DNA of 64,000 nt from Thermoanaerobaculia bacterium (lineage in GTDB: Bacteria; Acidobacteriota; Thermoanaerobaculia; Multivoradales; JAIOJS01), in NCBI GenBank assembly GCA_963846495.1, contig CAWJWP010000016.1, forward strand, positions 213,879-277,878, read 5' to 3'. Each line of letters begins with the position of its first letter. Within the stretch, counting starts at the first letter, position 1. Of this stretch, positions 25,469 to 64,000 are shown piece after piece. A model generated the notes under the pieces. It searched no databases, had not been told where the DNA came from, and saw only the letters and a list, made by a program, of their open reading frames with translations. A program made the translations under genes and the position numbers.

Positions 25469-26145
25469 TTATCGGACAACGGTGAAGAGCGACGCCGCAC
25501 CGCGCACGATCCACCAGAGGCCGACGAGGCGGAGCACCCAGAGCAGGTTGCGGATGCCGAGCAGGAAGAAGTTGTGGGCAGGGAACGGCACCCGGACCGG
25601 CACCGCCGGCTTGGCCGTCAGGTAGCCGAAGGCGACGACGTTGACGGTGATCCCCACCGCGAGCTGGAAGAGCGCCACCGCCGGATCGAGCCAGCGCGCC
25701 TCGCCGAGCGCCGCCGCGAGCAGCGCGGCGAGGAGGAGCAGCAGCGGGACGAAGATGCCGGCGCGCAGCGGCAGCCGCGCACGAGCCAGGAACGCAACGA
25801 AGCGCGCCGCCGCGTCGCGATGCCGCGCGCACGTCACCGCGACCAGCTCGCGGTCTCCACCCACGAGCAGCGGCAGCGGCTCGGCATGCGGCCGCGGCTG
25901 GCCGTTGCACCATAGGCACTTCCGCTCCCGCACCGCCTCCATGTACGGCCGCGCCAGGAAGCGGTGGCCGAGCATCAGCGCCACGCCCGCGGCGAGGCTC
26001 GCGCCCACCGGCGCGGGGTGACGCACGAAGAGGTAGAGCACGACCGGGATGAAGAGGAAGAGCGCGACGCCGAGGAGCTGCCAGCCCCACCCCCGCGGGC
26101 CAAGCCCGCTGCCGCCCCCCACCCAACCCCCTCCCCTCGGTTTCA
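25469..26145 (-). CDS. Hypothetical integral membrane protein with CxxC...CxxxH motif
   Basis: TM helices plus KCLWCNGQPRPHAE...VTCARHRD. The ORF track fuses it to the upstream ALDH gene by read-through. The start is uncertain: a GTG near 26145 lies in a G-run region. Confidence 0.4.
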
Positions 26146-26164
26146 CTTCACCCCTATCCCCCCG

Positions 26165-26190
26165 TCCCCCTGCCCCTCCAGGGGCAGGGG
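26165..26190. repeat. Perfect 12-bp GC hairpin CCCCCTGCCCCT-cc-AGGGGCAGGGGG inside a C-rich tract (26101..26200)
   Basis: Exact inverted repeat seen in the sequence, in the spacer between the ALDH stop and the downstream membrane gene. The minus strand is G-run rich. No U-tract follows. Confidence 0.7.
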
Positions 26191-26229
26191 GAGCCACCGC
26201 CCTTTCCGGCGCTGTCGGCACTTCGCTCG

Positions 26230-27973
26230 TCACCCTTGCAGGGCGAGGGCGAAGATGCCGGGCAGCTTCCACGGCGCCCGCTCGGCCTCGAAGTAGGTCA
26301 GCTTGCGCAGCAGCTGGTGGCTCGTGCGATGGAGCACGAACCAGGGCGGCTTCGGCCGCGGGCGGAAGGGCGCCCGCACGACGCCCTTCTCGACCTCGCT
26401 GAACATGAACGTGTTGTGCACCAGGCCCGTTCCCGATTGGATGTCCTGCGGCGTGTGGCCCGGGTAGGCGCCCCACGGCGTCACCACCAGGCCGTAGCCG
26501 ATCGCCGCCCAGTGGTTGACCGACACCGTGCCGTAGCGCAGGTCGGCGATCGCCCTGCTCGACGGCCGCGGCGAGCGCCGGATCGTCTTCCACCTGCGGG
26601 TGCACGAGCATGGTGACGTTGAGAGTCCCCCACGCCTTCTCGTTGCAGAAGTCGACCGCCTTCTTCACGAAATCGACGGCGCTCGACGCGGGGATCGGCA
26701 CCTCGCCCATGAAGCTGCAGAACGCCTCCGTGGTGAAGGCGATGTCGTCGCTCGCCTCGGGATCGAGCTCGCGCGCGATCGCCCACGGCAGCTCCCCCTC
26801 CCCCGGCGTGCCGATCTGCTCCGCGTCCGGGTGCGCGGCGAGGAACGAGGCGTAGCGGTCCGCCGCGCCCGGGTAGTAGGCGCGCCGCGGCGGCACTTGC
26901 CGCAGCACGTCGGCGATGGCGGCGAGGAACGCCTGCCGCTGGCTCCAACCGCGGTGCACCACGATCAGGCGCGTGGCGTTGCAGTTGAACCCCGCATTGT
27001 TGGCGATCATGGTGGCGACGTTCTCCGCCTGGAACGCAATGTCGGCGTCGCTCCAGCTGCCGGGGACGACGATCACCGGGCTGACGTTGCCGAGCTCGGA
27101 GCTCACCGGCTTGTGCAGCCGCGGCCGCCCCTCGGCCTTGCGGCGCGTCCCCTCGGGTCCGCCGCCGAAGACGATCGCGTCGTAGGTCTTGTCGGAGCCG
27201 GTGATGTGGATCGAGTCCACCAGCGCGTGCTCGCAGAGGTAGGCGCCCTCCTCGACGCCGCCGTAGACGACGCGCAGGAAGCCCGCCTCGACGAGCGGCC
27301 GCAGCCCGCGCTCGAGCAGCGGCCCCAGGTAGTCGTTGACGCGGTGGGTCTTGAACACCACCACCTCGTTGTCGACGAACAGCTTGTAGAGCGCGTCCAT
27401 CGGCCCGATCGACGACACGTTGCCGGCCGAGAGCACCAGCGCCACCTTGCCGCGCGGCAGCTCCTCCTTGTAGGCGACCGCCTGGTGTGCGGCGAGGTTC
27501 GCGGGCGTCACTCCCGGTTGCATCCACGCCTCGGCGGTGACGCCGGGATAGAACAGGCGGTCGTAGAGGTCGGCGGGGAAGACCTGCGCCGCGGCGCGTC
27601 CGTCGGGCAGTGCGCGCACCGGCCCGGGGATGCGCGGCGTGCCGTGCAACGAGATGCTGGTGAGCGACTCCTGCAGCAGACGCAGGTTGCGCAGCACGAA
27701 GTAGGGGCCGGCGATCCACTCCTCGGCGCCGCGCGGCGAGTCGCCGGGGATCCCCTCGGCGCGCTGGCAGGCCGCCACCCACTCGTCGGCGACGGCCGCG
27801 AAGCTCTTGCGCAGGCGGCGCAGGAGGTCGATCTTCTCGAGCAGCGGCAGCGACGCCCACGCCACCTTGCGCGAGCGCAGGGTGTCGAGGGCGGCGTCGA
27901 TCGCCTGCCGCGAGCTCGCGGGGATGGCGCTCTTCGGTTCGGGGGCGCGCAGGGCGCCGAGGGCGACGGCCAC
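26230..27973 (-). CDS. Aldehyde dehydrogenase family protein, with a +1 frame change near 26553
   Basis: GTG 27973 is preceded by GGAGG. ALDH motifs ELGNVSPVIV and NAGFNCNATR (catalytic Cys) are present. The C-terminal ~100 aa continue in another frame (…AAVEQ/AIADLRYGTVSVNHWAAIGYGLV…, ORF 26230..26526), consistent with an extra G in CAGGG. Confidence 0.75.
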
Positions 27974-36292: not shown

Positions 36293-37883
36293 ATGCCGTC
36301 GACCGCCAAACGTAGAGCCGGGCTGCTCCTCCACCCCACCTCGCTGCCGGGACGCTTCGGCGTCGGCGACATCGGGCCGGGGGCGGAGGCTTTCGTCGCC
36401 TGGGTGGAGGCGGCGGGCATCAGCGTCTGGCAGGTGCTGCCGCTGCATCCGCCGGGGCAGGGGAACTCGCCATACACGGCGCTCTCGGCCTTCGCCGGCG
36501 ACCCGCTGCTCGTCTCGCCCGACCGGCTGGTCGAGGACGGGCTGCTGCCCGCCTCCGCAGTCGCCTCGCCGCCGTCGTTCGCCGCCGACCGCGTCGACTT
36601 CGCGGCGGCCGGCGCCTGGAAGGACGCGCTCCTGCGCGAGGCATGGGCGCGCTTCCGCCGCGCCGGCGAGCCGGCGCTGCGCGACCGCTTCCGCTCCTTC
36701 GCCGCCGACGCGCGGCACGCGGTGTGGCTCGGCGACTGGGAGCTCTACCGCGCGCTCAAGGACCGTCACGGCGGCGCGCCCTGGTACGCGTGGCCGGCGC
36801 CGCTGGTGCGCCGCGAACCGGAAGCGCTCGAGGAAGCGCGACGCGAGCTGCTCGTCGAGACGGCCTACCACCGCTTCGTGCAGTTCCTCTTCTTCCACCA
36901 GTGGTCGCGGCTGCGCGGCGCCGCGGCGCGCGCCGGCATCCGCCTGCTCGGCGACCTGCCGATCTACGTCGCGCACGACAGCGCCGACGTGTGGGCGCAC
37001 CAGGAGCTGTTCGACCTCGACGACCAGGGGCAGCCGCGCCACGTCGCCGGCGTGCCGCCCGACTACTTCAGCCCCACCGGCCAGCGTTGGGGCAACCCGC
37101 TCTACCGCTGGGACCGCATGGCCGCCGACGGCTACGCCTGGTGGATCGAGCGGCTGCGCGGCAGCCTCGAGCTCACCGACCTCGCGCGCATCGACCACTT
37201 CCGCGCCTTCGCCGCCTACTGGCGCGTGCCGGCGAGCGAGCCGACGGCGCTCAACGGCGAGTGGGTCGAGGGCCCCGGGCTGACGTTCTTCACCGCCCTG
37301 CGGCGCGGCCTCGGCGGCTTGCCGATCATCGCCGAGGACCTCGGCGTCATCACCGACGACGTCGAGGCGTTGCGCGACCGCGCCGGCCTGCCGGGCATGA
37401 AGGTGCTGCAGTTCGCCTTCGACGAGGAGGACAGCTCGCACCTGCCGCACCGCCATCCGCAGCGCTCGGTCGTCTACACCGGCACCCACGACAACGACAC
37501 CACCGTGGGCTGGTTCGCGAAGCTGAGCGTCGAGGCGCGGCAGCGCTTCGCCGACTACCTCGGCCACGACCGCGAGGGGCCGCACTGGCAGCTCATCCGC
37601 GCCGCCTTCACCTCGCCGAGCCTGCTGGCGATCGTGCCGATGCAGGACGTGCTCGGGCTCGGCACCGAGGCGCGCATGAACGTGCCCGGCCGCGCCGAGG
37701 GGAACTGGTCGTGGCGCGTGCCGCCGGGCCTGCCGCGCGGCGACGAGCCGGCGCGGCTTGCGGAAGCTGGTGGTCGTCAGCGGCCGGCTGCCGCGCGAGC
37801 AGCGGGCGGATGCGGAAGGCGCGGCCGACGCGCCCGCCGCGGCGGCGGCCGAGCGCGAGCACGCGCGCCCGCGCGGCGCCTGA
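36293..37883 (+). CDS. malQ: 4-alpha-glucanotransferase (amylomaltase, GH77), with a C-terminal frame change near 37750
   Basis: GH77 motifs (GLLLHPTSLPG…GIGDIGP-like, …LGDLPIYVAHDSADVW…, NVPGRAEGNWSWR). The last ~40 aa continue in another frame (…ARLRKLVVVSGRLPREQ…PRGA*), consistent with an extra G in CTTGCGG. Confidence 0.8.
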
Positions 37884-41227: not shown

Positions 41228-43651
41228 TCAGGCGCTTTCGCGCTCGAGCTGTTCGCGCAGCAGGCGCTGGAGGAGCTGCGGGTTGGCGCGGCCGCCGGTC
41301 TCTTTCATCACCTGGCCGACGAACCAGCCGAGGAGACCCGTGCGGCCCTGTCGATACGCGGCGGCGTTCGACGGCTCGCGCGCGACGACGCGCGTCACTG
41401 CGTCGCCGAGGGCGGACTCGTCGCTGACCTGCGCGAGGCCGCGCGCTTCGACGATCGCGCGCGGGCTGCCGCCCGTGCGGACGAGCTCGGCGAGCACCGA
41501 CTTCGCGGCGGTCGCCGACAGCGTGTCGTCGTCGACCAGCGCGAGCAGCTCGGCGAGGGCGGCGCCGGTGACGGGCGACGCAGCGACGTCGACGCCGGCG
41601 GCCTCGAGCTCGCGCTGCAGCTCGTTGGCGATCCAGTTGGCGAGCGTTCGCGCGTTGACGCCGGCGGCAGCGCCGGCGGCGATGCCGTCGTCGAAAAACT
41701 CTCGTAGCGCCGGACGCGAAGTGAGCACGCGCGCCGACTCGACCGTGAGGTCGTAGCTCTCGCGCAGCGCCGCTACCTCGGGAGTCTCGGCTGCCTCAGT
41801 CCGAACGGCGGGCGCGGAGCCCGCCCTACCGTGCGCGGCTCTGTCATCGCCGGTGCGCGCCGCTGCGGTGTCCGCCTCCGGCGTAGGGCGGGCTCCGCGC
41901 CCGCCGCGACGCTCGCGATCGTCGGACCGCGCCGGCCTCTCCTGCTGCCGCCGCGCCAGCTTCGCCCAGGTGTCCTTCAACGTCACGATACGGTTGAAGA
42001 CACGCCGTCCTTCGGCCGCCGACTCGGGCTCGAGGTAGAAGTAGCCCTGCCGCTCGAACTGCCAACGGCTCGCGGGCTCGGCCTCCGCAAGTCCCGGCTC
42101 CGCCTTCGCACTCGCGATGACGCGCAGCGAGTCGGGGTTGAGACCCCCGCGATAGTCGCCCGCCGCGTCCGGGCTCTCGTCGCGGAACAGACGGTCGTAG
42201 AGCCGCGCCTCGACGTCGACGGCGTGCGCCGCCGACACCCAGTGCAGCGTGCCCGGCACCTTGCGTCCCGCCGGCGCCGCGCCGCCCGCGGTCGCCGGGT
42301 CGTAGGTACAGCGCACCTCGACGACCTCGCCGCGCTCGTCTTTCACGACGTCCGTGCAGCGCACGACGTAGGCGTAGCGCAGCCGCACCTCGGCGCCGAC
42401 CGTCAAGCGATGCCAGCCCTTCGGCGGCACCTCCGCGAAGTCGTCGCGCTCGATCCACAGCTCGCCGTCGAACGGCAGCTTGCGCGATCCCTCCTTCGGC
42501 ACGTCGTGCGGCCAGTAGGGCGCATCGAAGTGCTCGACCTTGCCGGCCGGCCAGTTCTCCACCACCAGCTTGAGCGGCTGCAGCACACAGAGCACGCGCG
42601 GCGCCTTGTCGTTGAGGTCCTCGCGCACCGCGTGCTCGAGCAGCGCCACGTCGACCGTGCTGTGCGCCTTGGCGACGCCGACGCGGTCGCAGAAGTTGCG
42701 GATCGACTCCGGCGTGTAGCCGCGGCGGCGGAAGCCGGACAGCGTCGGCATGCGCGGGTCGTCCCACCCCTGCACCAGCCCTGACTCCACGAGCTCGAGC
42801 AGCTTGCGCTTGCTCATCACCGTGTAATTGAGGTTGAGGCGCGCGAACTCGTACTGGCGCGGTCTCGGCTCCGGCCAGTCGACCGCTTCGAGCAGCCAGT
42901 CGTAGAGCTCGCGGTTGTTCTCGAACTCGAGGGTGCACAGCGAGTGGGTGATCCCCTCGAAGGCGTCCGAGAGCGGGTGGATGAAGTCGTACATCGGGTA
43001 GATGCACCAGGTGCTGCCGCGGCGGTAGTGCTCGGCGTGGCGGATGCGGTAGAGCAGCGGGTCGCGCATCTTCATGTTCGCCGCCGCCATGTCGATCTTG
43101 GCGCGCAGCACCGCGGCGCCGTCGGGCAGCTCGCCGGCGCGCATGCGGCGCAGCAGGTCGAGGTTCTCTTCCACGCTGCGGTCGCGATAGGGGCTCGGCC
43201 GCCCGGGCTCGGTGACGGTGCCGCGATAAGCGCGGATCTCCTCTTCCGAGAGACTGTCGACGTAAGCGAGCCCCTTCGTCACCAGCAGCTCGGCGAGCTC
43301 GTAGAGGCGCTCGAAGTAGTCGGAGGCGAAGTAGAGGCGATCGTCCCAGTCGAAACCGAGCCATCGCACGTCGCGCTGGATGGCCTCGACGTACTCCATG
43401 TCCTCGGTGAGCGGGTTGCTGTCGTCGAAGCGCAGGTTGCAGTGGCCGCCGAAGTCCGCCGGCAGCCCGAAGTTGAGGCAGATCGACTTGGCGTGGCCGA
43501 TGTGCGGATAGCCGTTGGGCTCGGGCGGGAAGCGAGACACGACGTGCTTGTGCTTGCCGGAGGCGAGGTCGGCTCGCACGATGTCCCTGACGAAATCCTC
43601 GCCAGGCTCGGCGGCCGGCGAACGGTCGCGAATGGAAGCCGGGTCGCTCAT
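41228..43651 (-). CDS. glnS: Glutaminyl-tRNA synthetase with C-terminal GatB/YqeY domain
   Basis: Class I signatures HIGH (PNGYPHIGHAKS) and VMSKR. The C-terminal ~190 aa form a GatB/Yqey-like domain (…GLLGWFVGQVMKETGGRANPQLLQRLL…). The start is taken as ATG 43651 (MSDPASIRD…); the 1015-aa ORF extends further upstream. Confidence 0.85.
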   Translation of the reverse strand: MSDPASIRDRSPAAEPGEDFVRDIVRADLASGKHKHVVSRFPPEPNGYPHIGHAKSICLNFGLPADFGGHCNLRFDDSNPLTEDMEYVEAIQRDVRWLGFDWDDRLYFASDYFERLYELAELLVTKGLAYVDSLSEEEIRAYRGTVTEPGRPSPYRDRSVEENLDLLRRMRAGELPDGAAVLRAKIDMAAANMKMRDPLLYRIRHAEHYRRGSTWCIYPMYDFIHPLSDAFEGITHSLCTLEFENNRELYDWLLEAVDWPEPRPRQYEFARLNLNYTVMSKRKLLELVESGLVQGWDDPRMPTLSGFRRRGYTPESIRNFCDRVGVAKAHSTVDVALLEHAVREDLNDKAPRVLCVLQPLKLVVENWPAGKVEHFDAPYWPHDVPKEGSRKLPFDGELWIERDDFAEVPPKGWHRLTVGAEVRLRYAYVVRCTDVVKDERGEVVEVRCTYDPATAGGAAPAGRKVPGTLHWVSAAHAVDVEARLYDRLFRDESPDAAGDYRGGLNPDSLRVIASAKAEPGLAEAEPASRWQFERQGYFYLEPESAAEGRRVFNRIVTLKDTWAKLARRQQERPARSDDRERRGGRGARPTPEADTAAARTGDDRAAHGRAGSAPAVRTEAAETPEVAALRESYDLTVESARVLTSRPALREFFDDGIAAGAAAGVNARTLANWIANELQRELEAAGVDVAASPVTGAALAELLALVDDDTLSATAAKSVLAELVRTGGSPRAIVEARGLAQVSDESALGDAVTRVVAREPSNAAAYRQGRTGLLGWFVGQVMKETGGRANPQLLQRLLREQLERESA

Positions 43652-43795
43652 TGAGTCGCCGATCAGCCCACGGCCTCGCTGTCGCTCGGGCGCCAGGCAG
43701 ACCTGGCGCCGCCGCTGCGCGGCGCCGCGGGTCCCTATCCGCCGTCCGTGCGCGCCGGCAGTAGAATCCGCGCACAGCTGCCAGGAGATCGCATC

Positions 43796-44100
43796 ATGTC
43801 CAACGCACCGGGGAATCGGGTCGACATCGTCGTCTGCCAGAAGCATGGCCTGCGCTACAACCGCGTCACCGATACCGGCTGCGCGATGTGCCGCCGCGAG
43901 GCGGCCGAGGCGGCCGGCGCACCGGCGAGCACGGGCGCGGTGCGCGTGGCAACCGCCCGCAACGGCGCCGCGGTCCGTGCCGCCCGACCGCCGGCTCCGC
44001 CTCCCGCGGCTGCTCGTCCGGTAGTGCCGCCCGCACCGCGACCCGCGGCGGCTCCTGCGCCGCGGCCGAGCGCCGGCTGCGCCAGCACCACCCCGCGTCG
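43796..44100 (+). CDS. Zinc-ribbon motif protein A (CxKHGLRYNR-x5-GCxxCRRE) with Pro/Ala-rich tail; frame unclear after ~44030-44100
   Basis: Begins MSNAPGNRVDIVVCQKHGLRYNRVTDTGCAMCRREAAE. Beyond the PA-rich region the plausible reading moves to another frame and runs into gene B without a stop. It may be one protein or two tandem paralogs. Confidence 0.4.
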
Positions 44101-44288
44101 CCGCCGCAACGCCGCCACGAGCAACTCCGACGCTCCCGCCAGCACCGCCGGCCTCGGCGGCGCCGACTCCCGCACCATTCGCGCCGCCCGCGACCGAAGC
44201 TCTGCCGTCGCTGCTTCCCGACCTACCGCCGCTCCTTCCCGATCTGCCGCCCGAGCCCGAGGCGCTGACCGCCACCGGCTCGCGACGG

Positions 44289-44804
44289 ATGGACGTCGCG
44301 ACCTGCGAGAAGCACGGCCTGCGCTACAACCGCGCCGTCGAGAGCGGCTGCGTGCGCTGCCGGCGCGAGAGCGGCGTGGCGACGACGGCCACGGCCGGCA
44401 CGGGAGCCAGTCGGCTGGGCACCGCGGTGCGGCTCGACGCGCCCTCTTCCGTCGGCACCCAGCTGCTCATCGCCGTCTTGCTCATCGGCGGCACCGGCGG
44501 CCTCTGCTTCGCGGCGCACCAGGCGGTGCTCAACAGCTTCGCCGGCGGTCTCCTCATGCAGACGGGGAGCGCCGGGATGGACGTCGTCGACGATCCCGGC
44601 GAGGCCTACGACGCAGCCGCCGAGCCCGCCGCCTGGCCGCCGCCGCGGCCGACAGGGCCGCAGCCCACCGCGCCTCCCGGCATGAAGGGGCGCGGCCCGG
44701 CCGAGGAGCAGAAGCAGATCGAGGAGCTCTTCCGCCAGATGCAAGAGGACGAGGCGAAAGAGCGCGGCGAGCAGCCGCCGCCCGCGGAAGAGATCCCGCA
44801 GTAG
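44289..44804 (+). CDS. Zinc-ribbon motif protein B (CEKHGLRYNR-x5-GCxxCRRE), single TM, acidic C-terminal tail
   Basis: MDVATCEKHGLRYNRAVESGCVRCRRE…, then the TM segment TQLLIAVLLIGGTGGLCFAAHQAVL, then …EEQKQIEELFRQMQEDEAKERGEQPPPAEEIPQ*. The N-terminal motif is duplicated from gene A. Confidence 0.55.
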   Translation: MDVATCEKHGLRYNRAVESGCVRCRRESGVATTATAGTGASRLGTAVRLDAPSSVGTQLLIAVLLIGGTGGLCFAAHQAVLNSFAGGLLMQTGSAGMDVVDDPGEAYDAAAEPAAWPPPRPTGPQPTAPPGMKGRGPAEEQKQIEELFRQMQEDEAKERGEQPPPAEEIPQ

Positions 44805-44807
44805 CGG

Positions 44808-45731
44808 CTAGCCTTCGTAGATCGCGTGCATCGCCGCGGAGTGGCGGCGGAAGAGCAGCCCGACGAAGTGCGGGGCGACGAAGGTCCAATAGATCCCGAG
44901 AATGCCGCTGAGCGCGATCCCGAGCAGCGGCAGGTGCTCGTTCAACAGCGCGCGGGTGATCACCACCACGCCGGCGAGCACGAAGGTGATGTTGACGATC
45001 TTCAGGCCGTCGCCGCCGGTCCGAAGCAGCGCCTTGACGTGGTTGTCGACGCGCAGCGCCGAGCGCCGCCAGTGCAGCGCCGCGCTGCCCCACGCCATCA
45101 CCGACAGCGCCGTGCCGAGCCACAGCGCCGTTGCCGCGCCGAGCCAGAAGCCGAGGTTCGGCTGCATCGTCGTCAGCCCCCCGATACCGAAGGCGAGCAG
45201 GAAAGCGACGAGCGGACCGACCTGCAGCAACGCGATCACCAGGTAGGTGAGGATCTCCACCACCCGCTCGCCGAAGCTCAAGTATTCGGGCCAGTCGGGC
45301 AGCTCGTTCTCCCACTTCGCGGTGCTCTCGACGATCTTGAACTGGATGCCGATGAGCAGCGACCACCAGCAGATCCACAGGAAGATCGGGAAGCACCCGA
45401 AGCCCCAGCGGGCGACGAAGGTGACGACGGCGGCGGTGATCAGCGAGGCGATGAAGAGGAAGAGGCCCGAGCCGCGGAACGGGTAGAGCAGCGCCTTGCC
45501 GATGCCGTACGGCCCTTGCGCCGCCACCTTCGCCACCTTGCGGCGCTCGTCGGTCGTCGCCGGCGCCGCCGCCTCGAGCGGCAGCGCGCGCTCGCCGCAC
45601 AGCTTGCAGAGCAGCAGCCGATGGCTCTCTTGGATGCAGGCGTCGCAGAGCAGCTTGCCGCAGCCGTCGCATTGGAAACGTGCTGCCGTCTGCGGATGCG
45701 TGACACAAGTCGAGGCGGCCGCCGGAGCCAT
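44808..45731 (-). CDS. Multi-TM membrane protein with N-terminal B-box/zinc-finger-like Cys/His cluster
   Basis: ATG 45731 is preceded by GGAGA. The N-terminus reads CVTHPQTAARFQCDGCGKLLCDACIQESHRLLLCKLCGE, followed by ~7 hydrophobic helices. Confidence 0.55.
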   Translation of the reverse strand: MAPAAASTCVTHPQTAARFQCDGCGKLLCDACIQESHRLLLCKLCGERALPLEAAAPATTDERRKVAKVAAQGPYGIGKALLYPFRGSGLFLFIASLITAAVVTFVARWGFGCFPIFLWICWWSLLIGIQFKIVESTAKWENELPDWPEYLSFGERVVEILTYLVIALLQVGPLVAFLLAFGIGGLTTMQPNLGFWLGAATALWLGTALSVMAWGSAALHWRRSALRVDNHVKALLRTGGDGLKIVNITFVLAGVVVITRALLNEHLPLLGIALSGILGIYWTFVAPHFVGLLFRRHSAAMHAIYEG

Positions 45732-45928: not shown

Positions 45929-46255
45929 ATGTTCGCCAGACATCACGTTACGCAGCGCCCCGTGCGCCAGGCCTTGAAGATCACCCGCGAAGCGGTCAAT
46001 CACGCCCTCGACGTCGCCGAGCCTCGCATCGAACGCGCGGCCTGCGATTTCGAGGACCTCTCGCGCGACGCGCTGAAGTCGCTGCGCAAGCGCTCGGCGG
46101 CGCAGCTCGACGATCTCCTCGGCGGCTACGGCCGGCTCGAGAAGAAGATGCGCAAGCGGCTGCCCGCGACGCTGGCACGGCAGCGCTTCGGGAAGCTGGC
46201 GCTCATCGCCGCCGGTGTCGCCATCCTCGCGTTCGGCATCTTCCGCTCGTCATAG
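45929..46255 (+). CDS. ElaB/YqjD (DUF883)-like small protein with C-terminal membrane anchor
   Basis: ATG 45929 is preceded by the strong RBS TAAGGAGG. It is 108 aa, helical, with C-terminal TM segment LALIAAGVAILAFGIF. Confidence 0.5.
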   Translation: MFARHHVTQRPVRQALKITREAVNHALDVAEPRIERAACDFEDLSRDALKSLRKRSAAQLDDLLGGYGRLEKKMRKRLPATLARQRFGKLALIAAGVAILAFGIFRSS

Positions 46256-46258
46256 CGA

Positions 46259-46495
46259 GTGACGACGACGATGCTCGCGCGACTCGCCACCGCTGCCGCG
46301 ATTGCGAAAGCACCGCGCACGACGTTCGTGTTGCGCCAGCTGGTGCGCCGCCCCAAGACGACTACGGCCGCTCTCGTGCTGACGATCGGTCTGCGCGAGA
46401 GCCGGACGCTACGCAAGCTGGCCGGCGGTCTGCTCGGCCTCGCTGCGCTCGGCGTCACCCTCCCCATCCTCGCGGTGTGGAGGCTGCGACGCTGA
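46259..46495 (+). CDS. Small hypothetical membrane protein
   Basis: ~74-78 aa with two hydrophobic segments. It lies immediately downstream of the ElaB-like gene. Confidence 0.35.
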   Translation: MTTTMLARLATAAAIAKAPRTTFVLRQLVRRPKTTTAALVLTIGLRESRTLRKLAGGLLGLAALGVTLPILAVWRLRR

Positions 46496-46725: not shown

Positions 46726-47475
46726 ATGAACGGACACTTCTCTGCCCGCCGCTCGATCCGTGCCCTCGTGCTCTTCGGGATCGCCGTGCTCACCTCCCTG
46801 GGCCTGCGCGCCTGGAACGACCAGCACGCCGTGCCGAAGAAGCTGCCGATGATCTCGTCGATGGCGCTGCCGGCGGACGAGATCGCCGACCTCGCCAAGG
46901 TGGCGGAGTGGCTGGGGCAGTCGCCTGCGGACCGCATGCCGGCCGCCCAGCTGGTCGAGGAGATCCGCAAGGACCGCGAGAGCTTCGCCGTCTTCGCCGG
47001 CTTCCACACCGAGCAGGAGCGGCGCGAGGCGCTGGTCGACGTGCCCTACGGCAAGGAGATCGCCAAGGCCGCCAAGGCGAACGGGGTGGACAGCCTGCTG
47101 GTCGCGGCGGTGGTCGAGATCGAGTCGACCTTCCGGCCCGACGCCGGCTCGCACAAGGGCGCCGTCGGCCTCATGCAGCTGCTGCCCAGCACGGCTGGGA
47201 TGTCGCGCGCCAAGCTGAAGAACCCCGGCACCAACCTCGAGGCGGGCGCGAAGTACCTGGCGAAGATGATCGACCGCTACGACGGCGACCTCGGTCTGGC
47301 GCTCGCGGCCTACAACGCCGGGCCCACCAACGTGCGGCGCTACAACGGCGTGCCCCCCTTCCCGGAGACCGAGCAGTACCTCGAGAAGGTGCTCAGCCGC
47401 TACGTCGACTACCACCGCGAGCTCTGGCAGACGAGCGGCGCGGCGCAGCTGGTGGCCGCGTCGGTCGCCTCCTGA
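46726..47475 (+). CDS. Lytic transglycosylase (SLT domain) protein
   Basis: RBS GGAAGGAG. SLT catalytic region …VVEIESTFRPDAGSHKGAVGLMQLLPSTA…AYNAGP. Confidence 0.8.
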   Translation: MNGHFSARRSIRALVLFGIAVLTSLGLRAWNDQHAVPKKLPMISSMALPADEIADLAKVAEWLGQSPADRMPAAQLVEEIRKDRESFAVFAGFHTEQERREALVDVPYGKEIAKAAKANGVDSLLVAAVVEIESTFRPDAGSHKGAVGLMQLLPSTAGMSRAKLKNPGTNLEAGAKYLAKMIDRYDGDLGLALAAYNAGPTNVRRYNGVPPFPETEQYLEKVLSRYVDYHRELWQTSGAAQLVAASVAS

Positions 47476-47595: not shown

Positions 47596-50460
47596 GTGGG
47601 TCGTCGTGACGAAGCCGATCGCCGGCCCGCCGACGCCACTCCCATCGCCATCGTCTCGCCGCCGCCGGTGCCGCTCACCTCGCTGGTGGGGCGGACGCGC
47701 GAGCTCGCGGACCTCGAGGAGCTGGTCGCCGCGCGGCGGCTGGTGACCCTCACCGGCGTCGGCGGCAGCGGCAAGACGAGGCTCGCCACCGAGCTGGCGC
47801 TGCGCCTCGAGCACGCGCAACCGGGCAGCGTCGCCTGGGTGGAGCTGGGGCGCTGCATGGACGCCGGCCTCGTCGCGCAGCAGGTGGGCGCCGCGCTGTC
47901 GCTGCGCGCCATGCAGGGCGGCGACCTGGTGCCGGCGCTCGTCGCCGCGCTGCGCGACCGCCAGCTGCTGCTCGTCCTCGACGACTGCGAGCACCTCGTC
48001 GACGCCGTCGCCGAGGTGGCCGGCGCGCTGCTCCAGCGCTGCCCGAGCCTGCGCATCGTCGCCACCAGTCGCGAGCCGCTCGGCGTCGGCGGCGAGCGCA
48101 TCTGGCCGGTGCCGCCGGTCACCGCCGAGGAGGGCGCGCGGCTCTTTGCCGAACGCGCCGGCGCCGTCGACCCGACCTTCGCGCTCGGCACCGGCAACGC
48201 GGCGTCGATCGCCGAGATCTGCCGGCGCCTCGACGGCATCCCGCTCGCCATCGAGCTCGCCGCCGCGCGCGCCCGCGTGCTCACCGTCGAGCAGATCGCC
48301 GCCCGCCTCGAAGACCGCTTCGCTTTGCTGACCGGCGGCGCCCGCACCGCCGTCGCGCGCCACCGCACGCTGCGCGCCGCCATCGACTGGAGCTTCTCGC
48401 TGCTGCAGGAGCGCGAGCAGGCGCTGCTGGCGCGCCTCGCCGTCTTCCCCGCCTGCTTCTCGCTCGAGTCGGTCGAGGCGATCTGCGGCGGTGACCTCGA
48501 CGTCGACCTCGATCTCCTCACCGGCCTCGTCGACAAGTCGCTGGTGGCGACGACCGTCCGCGGCGGCAGCGTCCGCTACGCGCTGCTGCAGACGATCCGC
48601 CAGTACGCGAGCGAGCGGCTGGCCGAGCGCGGCGAGGCCCTCGAGCTGGGCCGCCGGCACGCCCTCGCCTTCCTCGACTTCGCCCGCGCCGCCAAGGTCG
48701 ACCCCATGGGCGACGTGATGCATCGCCTCGAAGAGATGGCAACCGATCACGACAACGTCCGCGCTGCGCTGTCGTGGGGCCTCGAGCACGAGCCCGACAC
48801 CGTCGCGCTGCCGCTCGCGGCCGCCTATCGCTGGTTCTGGTACTACCGCATCCTGTGGAGCGAAGGGCTGCGCTGGACGACGCTGGTGCTGGAGCGCGCG
48901 ACCGCCACGCTCTCACCCGAGCGCACCAGCGTGCTGACGGCGGCCGGCAGCTATGCCGGTTACACCGGCGACCTCGCCACCGGCCGCCGCCGGCTCGAAG
49001 AGGCGGAAGCGATGTGGCGGGCGCTCGGGGACGACCGCGAGCTGGCGCTGGCGCTCTCCGGGCTCGCCGTGTTCCTCGCCGGCATGGGCGAGCTCGATGC
49101 CGCCGCCCGGCGCGCCGACGAGGCGCTGGCGTCGGCGCGCACCAAGGGCTCGCGCTGGGACGTCGCCTACTGCCTCGCCGGCTCCACCGCGTACGTGGCG
49201 GAGCGGCGCGGCGCGCTCGCGGAGGCCGACCGCGCCTACGGCGAGGCGGAGACGATCTTCGGCTCGCTCGACAACACCTTCGGCCTCCCCTTCGTGCTCA
49301 GCCTGCGCGCGCTCCTGGCGGTGCGGCGCGGCGACCTCGAGGCTGCCGCGCGCGGCGCCCGCGCGGCGCTGGTCGAGAGCCGCTCGCTGCGCTATCTCTG
49401 GTTCGCCGCCCGCGCCCTGCGCGTGCTGGCCTTCGCCAGCGGCGACGACCTGCCGCGCGCGGCGCGGCTGCTCGGTGCCGCCGACGCCACGCTGCGCACC
49501 GTCGGCGCCACGATGATGCAGCACGAGCGGGTGGAGCACGAGCGGCTGATGGAGACGTTGCGCGGCGCGCTGTCGGCCGAGGAGCTCGAGGCGGCGCTGC
49601 GCGAAGGGCGGAGCATGAGCTTCGAGGAGGCGTGCGACTTCGCGCTCCAGAGCGCGGCGGCTGCGCGCGCCGCGCAGCACGACGCGGAGCCGGCGCGGCC
49701 GGCGATCTGCGCTAGCGGCCCCGCGCTGGTCGTCGACGACCTCGGCCCGCTCGTCATCACGCTCGGCGGCCAGCCGATCGCGCAGGAGGGGCGGGCGGCG
49801 ACGCGGGTGCGCGAGCTCCTCGCCTTCCTCCTCGCTCATCCCGCCGGCGCGACGAAAGAGGAGGTCGGCGTCGCCTTCTGGCCCAACGCCGCCAGCGTGC
49901 AGGTGAAGAACGCCTTCCACGTCACCCTCCACCGCCTGCGCCGCCTGCTCGGCGGCGCCGAGTCGGTGGCGGCCGAGGGCGGCAGGTATCGCGTGACGAT
50001 CCCGTTCCTCCTCGTCTCGCAGCGCTTCGAGAGCGAGGTGAGCGCGGCGCTGCGTGACGGCGATGCGGCGCACGTCGACGCGGCGCGGCTCGACGCCGCG
50101 CTGGCGCTCTACCGCGGCGATTACCTGCAGGGCGAGGACGTCGGCGAGTGGAGCCTGCCGATGCGCACGCGGCTGCGCGAGGTCTGTCTGCGCGGCCTCT
50201 GCGCGCTCGGTCGCGCCCACGAGACGCGCGGCCGCTACGCCGACGCGGCGGACGCTTACGGCCGCGCCCTCTCGCGCGAGCCCTTCCACGAAGGTGCTGC
50301 GCGCCAGCTGATGATCTGCCGCGCGCGCCTCGGCGCCCGCTCCGAGGCGCTCCTCGTCTTCCGCCAGCTCGAGCAGCGCCTGCGCGAGGACCTGGCGGCG
50401 GCGCCCGAGCCCGAGACGAGCGCCCTCTTCCGCCGCCTGCGCCAGAACGAAGCGGTCTGA
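47596..50460 (+). CDS. STAND-type regulator: N-terminal NB-ARC/AAA ATPase, central TPR, C-terminal winged-helix plus BTAD (SARP-like) domain
   Basis: Walker A GVGGSGKTRLA and Walker B LLLVLDDCEH. The helical repeat middle is followed by the C-terminal …RELLAFLLAHPAGATKEEVGVAFWP…LHRLRRLL… and a BTAD-like region (LALYRGDYLQGE…). Confidence 0.75.
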   Translation: MGRRDEADRRPADATPIAIVSPPPVPLTSLVGRTRELADLEELVAARRLVTLTGVGGSGKTRLATELALRLEHAQPGSVAWVELGRCMDAGLVAQQVGAALSLRAMQGGDLVPALVAALRDRQLLLVLDDCEHLVDAVAEVAGALLQRCPSLRIVATSREPLGVGGERIWPVPPVTAEEGARLFAERAGAVDPTFALGTGNAASIAEICRRLDGIPLAIELAAARARVLTVEQIAARLEDRFALLTGGARTAVARHRTLRAAIDWSFSLLQEREQALLARLAVFPACFSLESVEAICGGDLDVDLDLLTGLVDKSLVATTVRGGSVRYALLQTIRQYASERLAERGEALELGRRHALAFLDFARAAKVDPMGDVMHRLEEMATDHDNVRAALSWGLEHEPDTVALPLAAAYRWFWYYRILWSEGLRWTTLVLERATATLSPERTSVLTAAGSYAGYTGDLATGRRRLEEAEAMWRALGDDRELALALSGLAVFLAGMGELDAAARRADEALASARTKGSRWDVAYCLAGSTAYVAERRGALAEADRAYGEAETIFGSLDNTFGLPFVLSLRALLAVRRGDLEAAARGARAALVESRSLRYLWFAARALRVLAFASGDDLPRAARLLGAADATLRTVGATMMQHERVEHERLMETLRGALSAEELEAALREGRSMSFEEACDFALQSAAAARAAQHDAEPARPAICASGPALVVDDLGPLVITLGGQPIAQEGRAATRVRELLAFLLAHPAGATKEEVGVAFWPNAASVQVKNAFHVTLHRLRRLLGGAESVAAEGGRYRVTIPFLLVSQRFESEVSAALRDGDAAHVDAARLDAALALYRGDYLQGEDVGEWSLPMRTRLREVCLRGLCALGRAHETRGRYADAADAYGRALSREPFHEGAARQLMICRARLGARSEALLVFRQLEQRLREDLAAAPEPETSALFRRLRQNEAV

Positions 50461-62825: not shown

Positions 62826-64000
62826 CTAGCCGGTAGCGCACTCGGCGGCGCGCACGAGCAAGAGCGTGCGCTCGCGTTCGTTCTTGGTGAGGGCGGCGGC
62901 GCGTTCGAATTCGGTGCGCGCTTCGGGGAAGCGGCCGAGTTTCTGGAGCAGATCACCGCGCACGGCGGGGAGCAGGTGGTAGCTCTGCAGCGCGGGCTCC
63001 GCGAGGAGCGTGTCGACCACCGCGAGACCCGCTGCTGGACCGGAAGCCATTCCTACCGCGACGGCGCGGTTGAGCTCGACGACGGGCGAGGGCAGGACGC
63101 GGCCGAGCTCTTCATAGAGCGCGACGATGCGCGGCCAGTCGGTGTCCGCCGCGACGCGGGCGCGGGCGTGGCAGGCGGCGATCGACGCCTGCAGCGCGTA
63201 GGGGCCGAGGCGGCCGGCGGCGAGCCGCTCGGCGTGCGCCAGCGCGGCGAGGCCGCGGCGGATGAGGAGCTGGTCCCAGCGCGCGCGGTCCTGGTCGAGG
63301 AGCAGGATGGGCTCGCCCTTCGGTCCCACGCGCGCGTGCGAGCGCGAGGCCTGGATCTCCATCAGCGACGAGGAGGCCGTGCACCTCGGGCTCGTCGGGC
63401 ATCAGCTCGGCGAGGATGCGGCCGAGGCGCAGCGCGTCGTCGCACAGCGCCGGGCGCAGCCAGTCCTCGCCGGCGGTGGCCGAGTAGCCCTCGTTGAAGA
63501 TCAGGTAGACGACCTCGAGCACCGACGGCAGCCGCGCCTGCAGCTCGGCGCCGCGCGGCACTTCGAAGGGCACGTTCGCCTCCGACAGCGTGCGCTTGGC
63601 GCGCACGATGCGCTGCGCGATCGTCGGCTCGGGCGCCAGGAAGGCGCGCGCGATCTCGCCGGTGGTGAGGCCGCCGAGCAGGCGCAGCGTCAGCGCCACC
63701 CGCGCCTCGGTGGCGAGCACCGGATGGCAGGCGATGAAGAGCAGGCGCAGCAGGTCGTCTCCCACCGGGTCGTCGAGAGCGGCGTCGAGGTCGGGCGGCG
63801 CTTGGCGCTCGACGAGGTCGCGGCCGAGCTCGTCGTGCTTGCGGTCGAGCATGGTGCGGCGGCGCAGCACGTCGATGGCGCGGTGCTTGGCCGTCTGCAT
63901 CAGCCAGGCGCCGGGGTTGTCGGGGACGCCCGCCTCCGGCCAGCGCTCGAGGGCGGTGACGAGCGCGTCCTGCGCCAGCTCCTCGGCGAGGCCGACGTCG
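62826..64000 (-). CDS. ECF-type RNA polymerase sigma factor with C-terminal extension (COG4941-like, LIFNEGY motif), 5'-truncated by the window and with a frame change near 63340
   Basis: Region 4 and extension sequence …AWLMQTAKHRAIDVLRRR…LTTGEIARAFL…VVYLIFNEGYSA…. The C-terminal TPR-like part continues in another frame (62826..63362 ORF). The N-terminus lies beyond 64000. Confidence 0.7.

What the first reader, a model, noticed from the sequence alone, without database searches (positions are those of the whole stretch)
43796..44804. Twice-occurring N-terminal zinc-ribbon motif C-x-K-H-G-L-R-Y-N-R-x5-G-C-x2-C-R-R-E in a tandem pair or fusion of small membrane-associated proteins divergent from glnS
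Both MSNAPGNRVDIVVCQKHGLRYNRVTDTGCAMCRREAAE… (from 43796) and MDVATCEKHGLRYNRAVESGCVRCRRESG… (from 44289) begin with the same 22-residue CHCC motif. The first continues into Pro/Ala-rich low-complexity sequence. The second continues into a single TM helix and an acidic tail. The frame of the first becomes implausible after ~44030-44100 and the sensible reading (…LPSLLPDLPPLLPDLPPEPEALTA…) runs in the frame of the second. So this is either one ~330-aa protein with an internal motif duplication, obscured by another +1 insertion, or two tandem paralogs. I could not assign the motif to a known family. Its strict conservation between copies argues that it is functional, for example a zinc-ribbon interaction module of an anti-sigma-like or membrane-tether protein.
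Basis: seen in the sequence. Interest (0 to 1): 0.6.

Follow-up and report, generated by a model that had tools for sequence, protein, structure and literature searches.

The report
Duplicated zinc-finger membrane protein, frameshifted assembly
The two look-alike motifs belong to one gene for a small membrane protein with two copies of an undescribed four-ligand zinc finger; the apparent split into two reading frames is most likely a one-base assembly error, and the family's function is unknown, though it always sits tail-to-tail with a B-box zinc-finger membrane protein.

Summary
C-x2-H-x11-C-x2-C occurs twice (43835-43900 and 44304-44369), 15 of 22 residues identical, in different frames. 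It is one gene. All 12 distinct two-finger relatives carry both fingers in one ORF of 257-294 aa, and finger spacing is a multiple of 3 everywhere except here (469 nt = 3n+1). Removing any one base in 44022-44157 (best fit 44059-44105) restores a 335-aa ORF. The window holds two other confirmed frameshifted genes and a probable third, so an assembly indel is the likeliest cause. The protein has two cytoplasmic CHCC zinc fingers (AlphaFold2 pLDDT 92-95, beta-hairpin plus helix), a Pro/Ala linker, one TM helix and an acidic tail with a conserved helix. The finger has no Pfam or NCBIfam model and no solved relative. It heads at least 175 protein clusters; named ones are Thermoanaerobaculia, Polyangiales and Labilithrix. 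The gene is convergent with a B-box/DUF4013 membrane protein gene in every locus that extends far enough, including three with otherwise different neighbours. Function is untested; I infer a membrane adaptor working with that partner. The anti-sigma idea is unsupported. Modest interest.

The parts
43796..44804 (+). One gene for a two-finger bitopic membrane protein. It encodes 335 aa once one extra base is removed. In this assembly it is read as a frame-2 head (43796 onward) and a frame-0 body (to the stop at 44802-44804).
   Evidence: Relatives P0183 (290 aa), P0004 (294 aa), P0003 (278 aa) and 12 distinct loci carry both fingers in one ORF. A single-base deletion restores the ORF.
43783..43787 (+). 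Shine-Dalgarno-like AGGAG, 8 nt before ATG 43796. Nothing comparable precedes ATG 44289.
   Evidence: Read directly from the sequence.
43835..43900 (+). Zinc finger 1 core, CQKHGLRYNRVTDTGCAMCRRE (the 'GCA[FML]C' type).
   Evidence: AlphaFold2 pLDDT 92-95, strands 11-13 and 20-22, helix 30-37 in homologue P0004.
43901..44303 (+). Pro/Ala-rich, length-variable linker between the fingers. It includes a 21-nt tandem duplication (LLPDLPP x2, 44202-44243).
   Evidence: Finger-to-finger spacing is 234-348 nt in relatives and 469 nt here. The region has low pLDDT.
44059..44105 (+). Most likely position of the single extra base (+1 insertion). Any one-base deletion in 44022-44157 restores the frame. 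The interval contains a CCCC run at 44091-44094.
   Evidence: A deletion scan scored against P0183 and P0004. Alignment with L011 shows 82 = 81+1 extra nt.
44304..44369 (+). Zinc finger 2 core, CEKHGLRYNRAVESGCVRCRRE (the 'GCVRC' type, the one found in single-finger relatives).
44463..44531 (+). Single transmembrane helix, LLIAVLLIGGTGGLCFAAHQAVL, with a His conserved across the wider family.
   Evidence: Hydropathy maximum. AlphaFold2 helix 177-209 in P0004. Conservation.
44694..44771 (+). Conserved charged helix, GPAEEQKQIEELFRQMQEDEAKERGE, in the acidic, probably periplasmic tail.
   Evidence: Invariant G-P and near-invariant Q residues. AlphaFold2 helix 260-283 in P0004, pLDDT 83-89. Charge balance.
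44808..45731 (-). Conserved convergent partner gene: a 307-aa protein with an N-terminal B-box-type zinc finger and a DUF4013-like polytopic membrane domain. Its stop codon lies 3 nt from the stop of the finger gene.

Best explanation
Positions 43796-44804 are a single gene. Its native product is a bitopic inner-membrane protein of about 335 aa. From the N-terminus it has two tandem copies of a roughly 30-residue zinc finger in the cytoplasm. In each copy one Zn2+ would be held by Cys and His in a beta-hairpin knuckle and by Cys-x2-Cys at the start of a short helix. A flexible Pro/Ala linker joins the two copies. A second, shorter linker follows, then one TM helix with a conserved His, then an acidic, probably periplasmic tail that ends in a conserved charged helix. 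The second finger is the ancestral one. The first arose by a single internal duplication in one Thermoanaerobaculia lineage and has been kept since. In this assembly one extra base in the linker, most likely an assembly error, puts the two halves in different frames. Inferred, not shown: the fingers are protein-binding modules, and the protein works together with the B-box/DUF4013 polytopic membrane protein encoded tail-to-tail with it. The conserved TM helix may pack against the partner's membrane domain. The finger(s) may bind the partner's cytoplasmic B-box or a shared cytoplasmic ligand. A second finger would double the valency.
For: Shown. (1) Every two-finger relative has both fingers in one ORF, with spacing divisible by 3. 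Only the window gives 3n+1. (2) The closest full-length relative, P0183, contains the internal sequence 'GSRRMDVAVCEKHGL', so ATG 44289 is an internal Met. L011, at 90% identity, reads straight through the linker. (3) One-base deletions restore a 335-aa ORF that aligns end to end with P0183 and P0004. (4) AGGAG precedes 43796 and nothing similar precedes 44289. (5) Other frameshifted genes lie in the same 64 kb. malQ has an extra G at about 37757. The DUF6596 sigma-factor gene is shifted at about 63365, and its Pfam match runs across the repaired junction. An ALDH-like gene is probably shifted at about 26550. (6) AlphaFold2 models both fingers with confidence as hairpin plus helix, with the four ligands at the knuckle and the helix start. 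C, H, G-C and C are invariant. (7) 'GCA[FML]C' in copy 1 and 'GCVRC' in copy 2 hold in all two-finger proteins down to 47% identity, which indicates one old duplication with both copies retained. (8) The N-side has 25 K/R against 14 D/E, and the tail has 7 against 17, which indicates N-in/C-out. (9) The partner gene is convergent in every locus with room. The stop-to-stop distance is -25 to +83 nt in 24 of 26 loci. This includes L024 (36% identity), L025 (45%) and L026, where glnS, SLT and the small genes are absent.
Against: No reads are available, so a genuine mutation cannot be excluded. The exact inserted base cannot be located, because the 81-nt stretch around it has no close homologue. 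Zinc binding, topology and any interaction with the partner are all untested. The convergent orientation means the two genes are not an operon, and most of the loci come from one bacterial class, so part of the pairing could be inherited gene order. The long Ank-type member L027 lacks the partner. hhalign finds no relation between the finger and the partner's B-box. Structure searches gave no significant match that could suggest a ligand.
Confidence: 0.7

Rival explanations
1. The frameshift is real in this organism. The gene is then either a pseudogene or has been split. The head would give a 90-aa finger followed by out-of-frame sequence. The body would be translated from ATG 44289 as a 171-aa single-finger protein resembling the natural single-finger relatives.
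For: ORF2 starts with Met exactly at the beginning of the finger-2 module and looks like the single-finger forms of 168-193 aa. The source's own gene call is this 171-aa protein. No read data are available to prove an error.
Against: The Met is internal in the full-length relative P0183. No Shine-Dalgarno sequence precedes 44289. At least two other genes in the same 64 kb (malQ, the DUF6596 sigma-factor gene), and probably a third (ALDH-like), are also frameshifted, which points to assembly indels rather than to several real pseudogenes. Apart from the one base, the linker shows no decay and no stop codons.
Confidence: 0.15
2. The native state is two tandem paralogous genes, each with one finger.
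For: Two ATG-initiated motif-bearing peptides lie in different frames.
Against: Frame 2 has no stop before 44911, so gene 1 would overlap all of gene 2. In all 12 distinct two-finger relatives both fingers lie in one ORF. L011 and P0183 read through continuously.
Confidence: 0.02
3. It is a membrane-bound zinc-binding anti-sigma factor, with the finger sequestering an ECF sigma factor.
For: The architecture of a cytoplasmic zinc site, one TM helix and an extracytoplasmic tail is typical of anti-sigma factors. In the wider family the C-terminal regions vary, as sensor domains do.
Against: There is no H-x3-C-x2-C motif and no zf-HC2, RsrA or anti-sigma Pfam hit even at E<=1. The module is about 30 aa of hairpin plus one helix, not a four-helix anti-sigma domain of about 90 aa. 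No sigma-factor gene is adjacent in L001, L003, L004, L006, L008, L010, L025 or L026.
Confidence: 0.05
4. The protein acts on its own as a polar or positional landmark or tether, like ZitP. The fingers bind a soluble cytoplasmic scaffold, and the adjacency to the B-box/DUF4013 gene is only inherited gene order.
For: [quoted passage not shown] The two genes are not co-transcribed. Some motif-bearing proteins, such as L027, lack the partner.
Against: The pair persists in L024, L025 and L026 although every other neighbour differs. The TM helix itself is conserved, which suggests an intramembrane contact.
Confidence: 0.08

Closest known systems
ZitP (Caulobacter crescentus) and the N-terminal ZnR domain of GltJ (Myxococcus xanthus): bitopic membrane proteins with a small N-terminal cytoplasmic zinc finger
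   Same: A small N-terminal cytoplasmic zinc finger of 30-40 aa is followed by a flexible linker, one TM segment and an extracytoplasmic region. In both proteins the finger is a protein-binding module: PopZ for ZitP, and the Linker and MglB for GltJ (PMC5182063, PMC5182065, PMC11135422).
   Different: Those fingers are Cys4 (GltJ uses C5, C8, C28 and C31) and are built from two beta-hairpins. Here the ligands are C-x2-H-x11-C-x2-C, and the second pair sits at the start of a helix. No sequence relation was found: there was no Pfam or NCBIfam hit, and neither protein appeared in the PDB profile search. There is no GYF domain and no DUF3426.
B-box zinc fingers (Pfam PF00643, PF22586), including the one in the neighbouring gene
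   Same: They start with C-x2-H, end with C-x2-C, and are treble-clef-like. The convergent partner carries a B-box-type finger at its own N-terminus.
   Different: A B-box has seven or eight ligands and binds two zinc ions in a cross-brace. This motif has four ligands and a shorter spacing. There is no Pfam hit at E<=1. hhalign against the partner's B-box gives a probability of 0.7%.
Zinc-binding anti-sigma factors (ZAS, zf-HC2 / RsrA type)
   Same: A cytoplasmic zinc site, a single TM helix and an extracytoplasmic tail.
   Different: The motif is different (H-x3-C-x2-C in a four-helix domain). No family hit was found, and no sigma-factor gene is adjacent.

Membership tests
Uncharacterised CHCC-finger / TM / acidic-helix small-protein family (defined here; no Pfam or NCBIfam model) | C-x2-H-G-L-x-[YF]-[DN]-x5-G-C-x2-C-R with a fixed H-x11-C spacing, at the N-terminus | tested here: met
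   Both window copies fit. The spacing is fixed in 179 of 180 instances, and 165 of 180 instances lie within the first 60 residues. A profile search of 1.84 billion representatives found 175 clusters at E<=1e-3.
Uncharacterised CHCC-finger / TM / acidic-helix small-protein family (defined here; no Pfam or NCBIfam model) | A single TM helix 15-40 residues after the finger, with a conserved His near its outer end, followed by an acidic tail with a helix | tested here: met
   Window TM LLIAVLLIGGTGGLCFAAHQ. Family alignment. AlphaFold2 helices.
Uncharacterised CHCC-finger / TM / acidic-helix small-protein family (defined here; no Pfam or NCBIfam model) | Convergent B-box/DUF4013 membrane-protein gene immediately downstream | tested here: met
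   The gap is 3 nt in the window. The partner is present in every locus with enough downstream DNA, including the distant loci L024, L025 and L026.
Uncharacterised CHCC-finger / TM / acidic-helix small-protein family (defined here; no Pfam or NCBIfam model) | Binds one Zn2+ per finger | not testable with these tools
   Inferred only from the invariant C/H/C/C residues and the AlphaFold2 fold.
Zinc ribbon of the ZitP/GltJ ZnR (MJ0042) type | Four Cys as CxxC...CxxC on two beta-hairpins | tested here: not met
   The ligand set is CHCC, and the second pair lies at a helix N-terminus. GltJ uses C5, C8, C28 and C31 on two hairpins (PMC11135422).
Zinc ribbon of the ZitP/GltJ ZnR (MJ0042) type | Match to the family's sequence models or solved members | tested here: not met
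   No Pfam or NCBIfam hit at E<=1. The PDB profile search returned only spurious TALE-repeat matches.
B-box zinc finger (PF00643 / PF22586) | Seven or eight Cys/His ligands binding two zinc ions, and a match to the Pfam model | tested here: not met
   The motif has four ligands only and no Pfam hit. hhalign against the partner's B-box gives a probability of 0.7%.
Zinc-binding anti-sigma factor (ZAS, zf-HC2) | H-x3-C-x2-C within a four-helix anti-sigma domain | tested here: not met
   The motif is absent. The module is a hairpin plus one helix. There is no Pfam hit.
Zinc-binding anti-sigma factor (ZAS, zf-HC2) | Co-transcribed ECF sigma-factor gene next to it | tested here: not met
   No sigma-factor gene is adjacent in the window or in 8 loci with called genes.

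The most novel reading that the evidence does not exclude
The CHCC-finger bitopic protein and the B-box/DUF4013 polytopic protein form a previously undescribed two-protein membrane module of Acidobacteriota, and perhaps of Myxococcota. Two unrelated cytoplasmic zinc fingers and a conserved TM-TM contact would couple the cytoplasm to the periplasm, for signalling or for positioning. The conserved tail-to-tail, nearly overlapping gene arrangement might add antisense or transcriptional coupling. Duplication of the finger would tune valency.
Probability: 0.25. Interest if true: 0.5.

Novelty: new variant of a known kind. Interest (0 to 1): 0.3.

Why it matters
First, it removes a false puzzle. The 'two genes or one' ambiguity comes from an indel in an error-prone assembly. 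The deposited 171-aa gene call is a truncation, and the window's other broken genes should be read the same way. Second, it defines a compact zinc finger with no existing model, C-x2-H-x11-C-x2-C in a hairpin plus helix. This finger heads at least 175 clusters of small membrane proteins in poorly studied soil phyla. In the subfamily examined, it has a conserved gene partner (B-box + DUF4013) that is itself uncharacterised. That gives a concrete, testable handle on two families of unknown function, but there is no sign of an unusual mechanism.

Tried and rejected
- **Pfam, NCBIfam and PADLOC.** I scanned both halves, full-length homologues and 145 wider-family members. Nothing covered the finger.
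- **A weak GltJ hit.** A weak NCBIfam hit to GltJ appeared in two unidentified members. It was not seen again among the ten long members rescanned. The literature shows that the GltJ ZnR is a different, Cys4 two-hairpin finger, so I treat it as an analogue only.
- **PDB sequence-profile search.** It returned only summed 8-residue 'VLCQAHGL' matches in TALE repeats, which I rejected as spurious.
- **Relation to the partner's B-box.** hhalign of the finger against the partner's B-box found no relation.
- **Exact look-ups.** The window ORF2 was not on record in the contig index. Neither version of the long frame-2 ORF is in the protein collection.
- **Third protein search.** The search with a family alignment was swamped by low-complexity words and added only a Labilithrix member.
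- **Promoter and terminator scan.** No hits.
- **First tblastn screen for frameshifts.** Using all ORFs as queries was unusable, because the high G+C content creates long spurious ORFs. I redid it with called genes.
- **Hypotheses rejected.** Programmed frameshifting and phase variation were considered and rejected. There is no slippery or repeat tract, and similar one-base shifts occur in unrelated genes of the window.
- **Literature.** Searches for DUF4013 function and for bacterial B-box membrane proteins found nothing.

Full report
**1. What is in the sequence**

The window has a high G+C content. A glnS/YqeY fusion gene lies on the minus strand at 41231-43651 (NCBIfam PRK14703, E = 0). 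It is divergent from the feature.

On the plus strand, ATG 43796 is preceded by AGGAG 8 nt upstream. It opens the frame that encodes MSNAPGNRVDIVVCQKHGLRYNRVTDTGCAMCRRE. This frame has no stop until 44911, but after about 44070 it reads as Arg-rich nonsense.

A second frame has a stop at 44022-44024. After that stop it reads ...APAPPRVAAATPPRATPTLPP...LPSLLPDLPPLLPDLPPEPEALTATGSRRMDVATCEKHGLRYNRAVESGCVRCRRE..., then a TM segment, then an acidic tail ending at 44804. From about 44260 onward this frame has third-position G+C of 0.93-0.97.

The two 22-residue cores share 15 of 22 residues. At DNA level they form a 140-nt direct repeat at 70% identity, 469 nt apart, which is 3n+1.

**2. One gene or two**

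A protein search with the 171-aa second ORF found 28 clusters, all from metagenomes or MAGs. The only name given by a source is Thermoanaerobaculia bacterium. The hits fall into two forms.
- Ten are 257-294 aa and carry both fingers in one polypeptide.
- The more distant ones are 168-193 aa and carry one finger.

I fetched DNA for 27 loci. In all 14 two-finger loci (12 distinct) the two fingers are in the same frame of one ORF. The finger-to-finger spacing is 234-348 nt and always divisible by 3. The window is the only exception.

L011 is 90% identical and is cut by a contig edge. It reads straight through the linker in one frame and differs from the window by 82 = 81+1 nt. P0183 is a 290-aa full-length member of the same 90% cluster. 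It contains 'GSRRMDVAVCEKHGL' internally, so the window's ATG 44289 is an internal Met and not a start codon.

Deleting any one base in 44022-44157 restores a 335-aa ORF. Alignment scores against P0183 and P0004 are highest for deletions in 44059-44105, an interval that contains a CCCC run.

**3. Is the frameshift real?**

Among 19 genes syntenic with L001 and L003, only this gene matches in two frames. However, malQ also carries an extra G at about 37757 (GCGCGGCTTG here, GCGCGCTTG in L001). Its last 40 residues continue in another frame, and in that frame they match both L001 and L003.

A G+C-periodicity scan found two further cases.
- **ECF-type sigma-factor gene, about 63365.** After repair, its Pfam DUF6596 match (E = 9e-38) runs uninterrupted across the junction.
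- **ALDH-like gene, about 26550.** This one is probable only, because Pfam does not reach the junction.

Three or four broken genes in 64 kb, among them a carbohydrate-metabolism gene (malQ) and a sigma-factor gene, point to assembly indels and not to biology. I put roughly 0.8 on artefact and 0.15 on a genuine mutation. Only reads can settle it.

**4. The protein**

AlphaFold2 was run on homologue P0004 with the 27-sequence alignment. It gives:
- two confidently modelled fingers (pLDDT 92-95), each with two short strands and a helix;
- a disordered Pro/Ala linker;
- a long TM helix (177-209);
- a C-terminal helix (260-283, pLDDT 83-89).

The 32-residue finger modelled alone gives a mean pLDDT of 92.6 with the same hairpin-plus-helix layout. 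The first Cys and the His lie in the hairpin turn. The C-x2-C lies at the start of the helix. This is a treble-clef-like arrangement and not a two-hairpin ribbon.

The residues C, H, L, Y, G-C, C and R are invariant. The N-terminal part has 25 K/R against 14 D/E. The tail has 7 against 17, which argues for an N-in/C-out topology.

Copy 1 always has GCA[FML]C and copy 2 always has GCVRC. Single-finger relatives carry the copy-2 type. So there was one duplication, older than the split at about 47% identity, and both copies have been kept.

**5. Is the finger known?**

- Pfam, NCBIfam and PADLOC gave no hit for the finger.
- A profile of the finger against PDB sequences returned only spurious TALE-repeat matches.
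- A profile search of 1.84 billion representative proteins found 175 clusters at E<=1e-3.

The motif lies within the first 60 residues in 165, and a TM segment typically follows at residues 45-70.

The small members (about 100-220 aa) also share the TM helix with its His and an acidic helical tail. A few long members carry Ank, Sel1, thioredoxin-like, esterase/S9 or RDD domains after the TM. The named sources are Thermoanaerobaculia, Polyangiales and Labilithrix, and all entries are called 'hypothetical' or are named after their C-terminal domain.

**6. Context**

Close relatives conserve the order glnS (-), finger gene (+), 307-aa gene (-), about 108 aa (+), about 70 aa (+), SLT (+).

The 307-aa protein has an N-terminal finger of the form C-x2-H-x8-C-x2-C-x4-C-x2-C-x4-H-x4-C-x2-C. 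In the window's copy it is sub-threshold for the Pfam B-box models. Many homologues have recorded hits to PF22586, PF00643 and PF13197 (DUF4013), and NCBI names them 'B-box zinc finger protein'.

This gene is convergent with the finger gene in every locus that extends far enough. The stop-to-stop distance is -25 to +83 nt in 24 of 26 loci. In the other two loci a membrane-protein gene has been inserted between them.

The pair persists in L024 (partner 36% identical), L025 (45%) and L026 (a C-terminal fragment). In those loci glnS, SLT and the small genes are absent, and in L025 and L026 the called neighbouring genes are unrelated to the window's. The Ank-type member L027 lacks the partner. hhalign sees no homology between the two kinds of finger.

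**7. Mechanism**

Shown or strongly supported:
- it is a single gene;
- it has two tandem CHCC fingers of a conserved family with no existing model;
- it is a bitopic protein;
- it has a conserved convergent partner.

Inferred:
- each finger binds one zinc ion and acts as a protein-binding module on the cytoplasmic face;
- the conserved TM helix contacts the DUF4013-type membrane domain of the partner;
- the second finger adds valency.

[quoted passage not shown] Their fingers bind PopZ, or the GltJ linker and MglB. Those are Cys4 two-hairpin ribbons with no detectable sequence relation, so this protein may work like them but is not a member of their family.

The anti-sigma idea fails each test I could apply. 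The motif is wrong, the fold is wrong, there is no family hit, and there is no neighbouring sigma-factor gene.

**8. Verdict**

The finding is a real but ordinary kind of object: an internally duplicated zinc-finger membrane protein whose odd appearance comes from a probable assembly error. What remains of interest is modest. The finger family has no model in Pfam or NCBIfam, and in the subfamily examined it has a conserved partner that is also uncharacterised.

Noticed in passing
window 36293-37880 (+), shift at about 37757: malQ (GH77, 4-alpha-glucanotransferase) carries a one-base insertion: GCGCGGCTTG here, GCGCGCTTG in L001. Its last 40 residues continue in another frame, where they match L001 and L003.
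   Followed up: yes
window 62826-63900 (-), shift at about 63365: An ECF-type sigma-factor gene with a DUF6596 domain is split into two overlapping ORFs. Joining them at ...EVHGLL|ALMEIQ... gives a full-length DUF6596 match (E = 9e-38).
   Followed up: yes
window 25469-27973 (-), shift at about 26550: An 834-aa ORF appears to be an aldehyde-dehydrogenase-like gene. Its true C-terminus (AIADLRYGTVSVNHWAAIGYG...) continues in another frame, so the ORF runs on into a downstream membrane-protein gene. This is probably another indel.
   Followed up: partly
window 44808-45731 (-): A 307-aa protein with an N-terminal B-box-type zinc finger (eight or nine Cys/His) and a DUF4013-like polytopic membrane domain. 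The family has 153 clusters, mostly Thermoanaerobaculia, and no known function.
   Followed up: partly
window 45929-46252, 46283-46492 and 46726-47472 (+): Two small conserved genes are followed by an SLT lytic transglycosylase. The first encodes 108 aa with a C-terminal TM and weak DUF1206 similarity; the second encodes about 70 aa. This trio is syntenic in the close relatives and absent from the distant loci.
   Followed up: partly
window 41231-43651 (-): Glutaminyl-tRNA synthetase fused to a C-terminal GatB/YqeY domain (NCBIfam PRK14703). This is a known fusion type.
   Followed up: no
protein P0014 (181 aa, ENA metagenome): A single-finger protein whose finger looks chimeric: the copy-1 head MANPPGTRIDIVVCQKHGLRYN is joined to the copy-2 end AAEKGCVRCRAESG. 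It may be a deletion by recombination between the two repeats, or a short-read assembly collapse.
   Followed up: no
L012 6866-8700 and L014 1237-4425: In two relatives a large polytopic membrane-protein gene that looks like a GT-C/ArnT-type glycosyltransferase (from my reading of the translated sequence; no family search was run on it) has been inserted between the finger gene and its convergent partner.
   Followed up: no
window 44202-44243 (+): A 21-nt tandem duplication encodes LLPDLPP twice in the linker. Linker length varies widely among relatives: finger spacing is 78-116 codons there and 156 codons here.
   Followed up: partly
window 47596-50457 (+): A 954-aa STAND NTPase (NB-ARC/AAA) with TPR repeats and a C-terminal BTAD domain, an AfsR/SARP-like regulator. 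It is present in L001 but replaced by other genes in L003 and L004.
   Followed up: no
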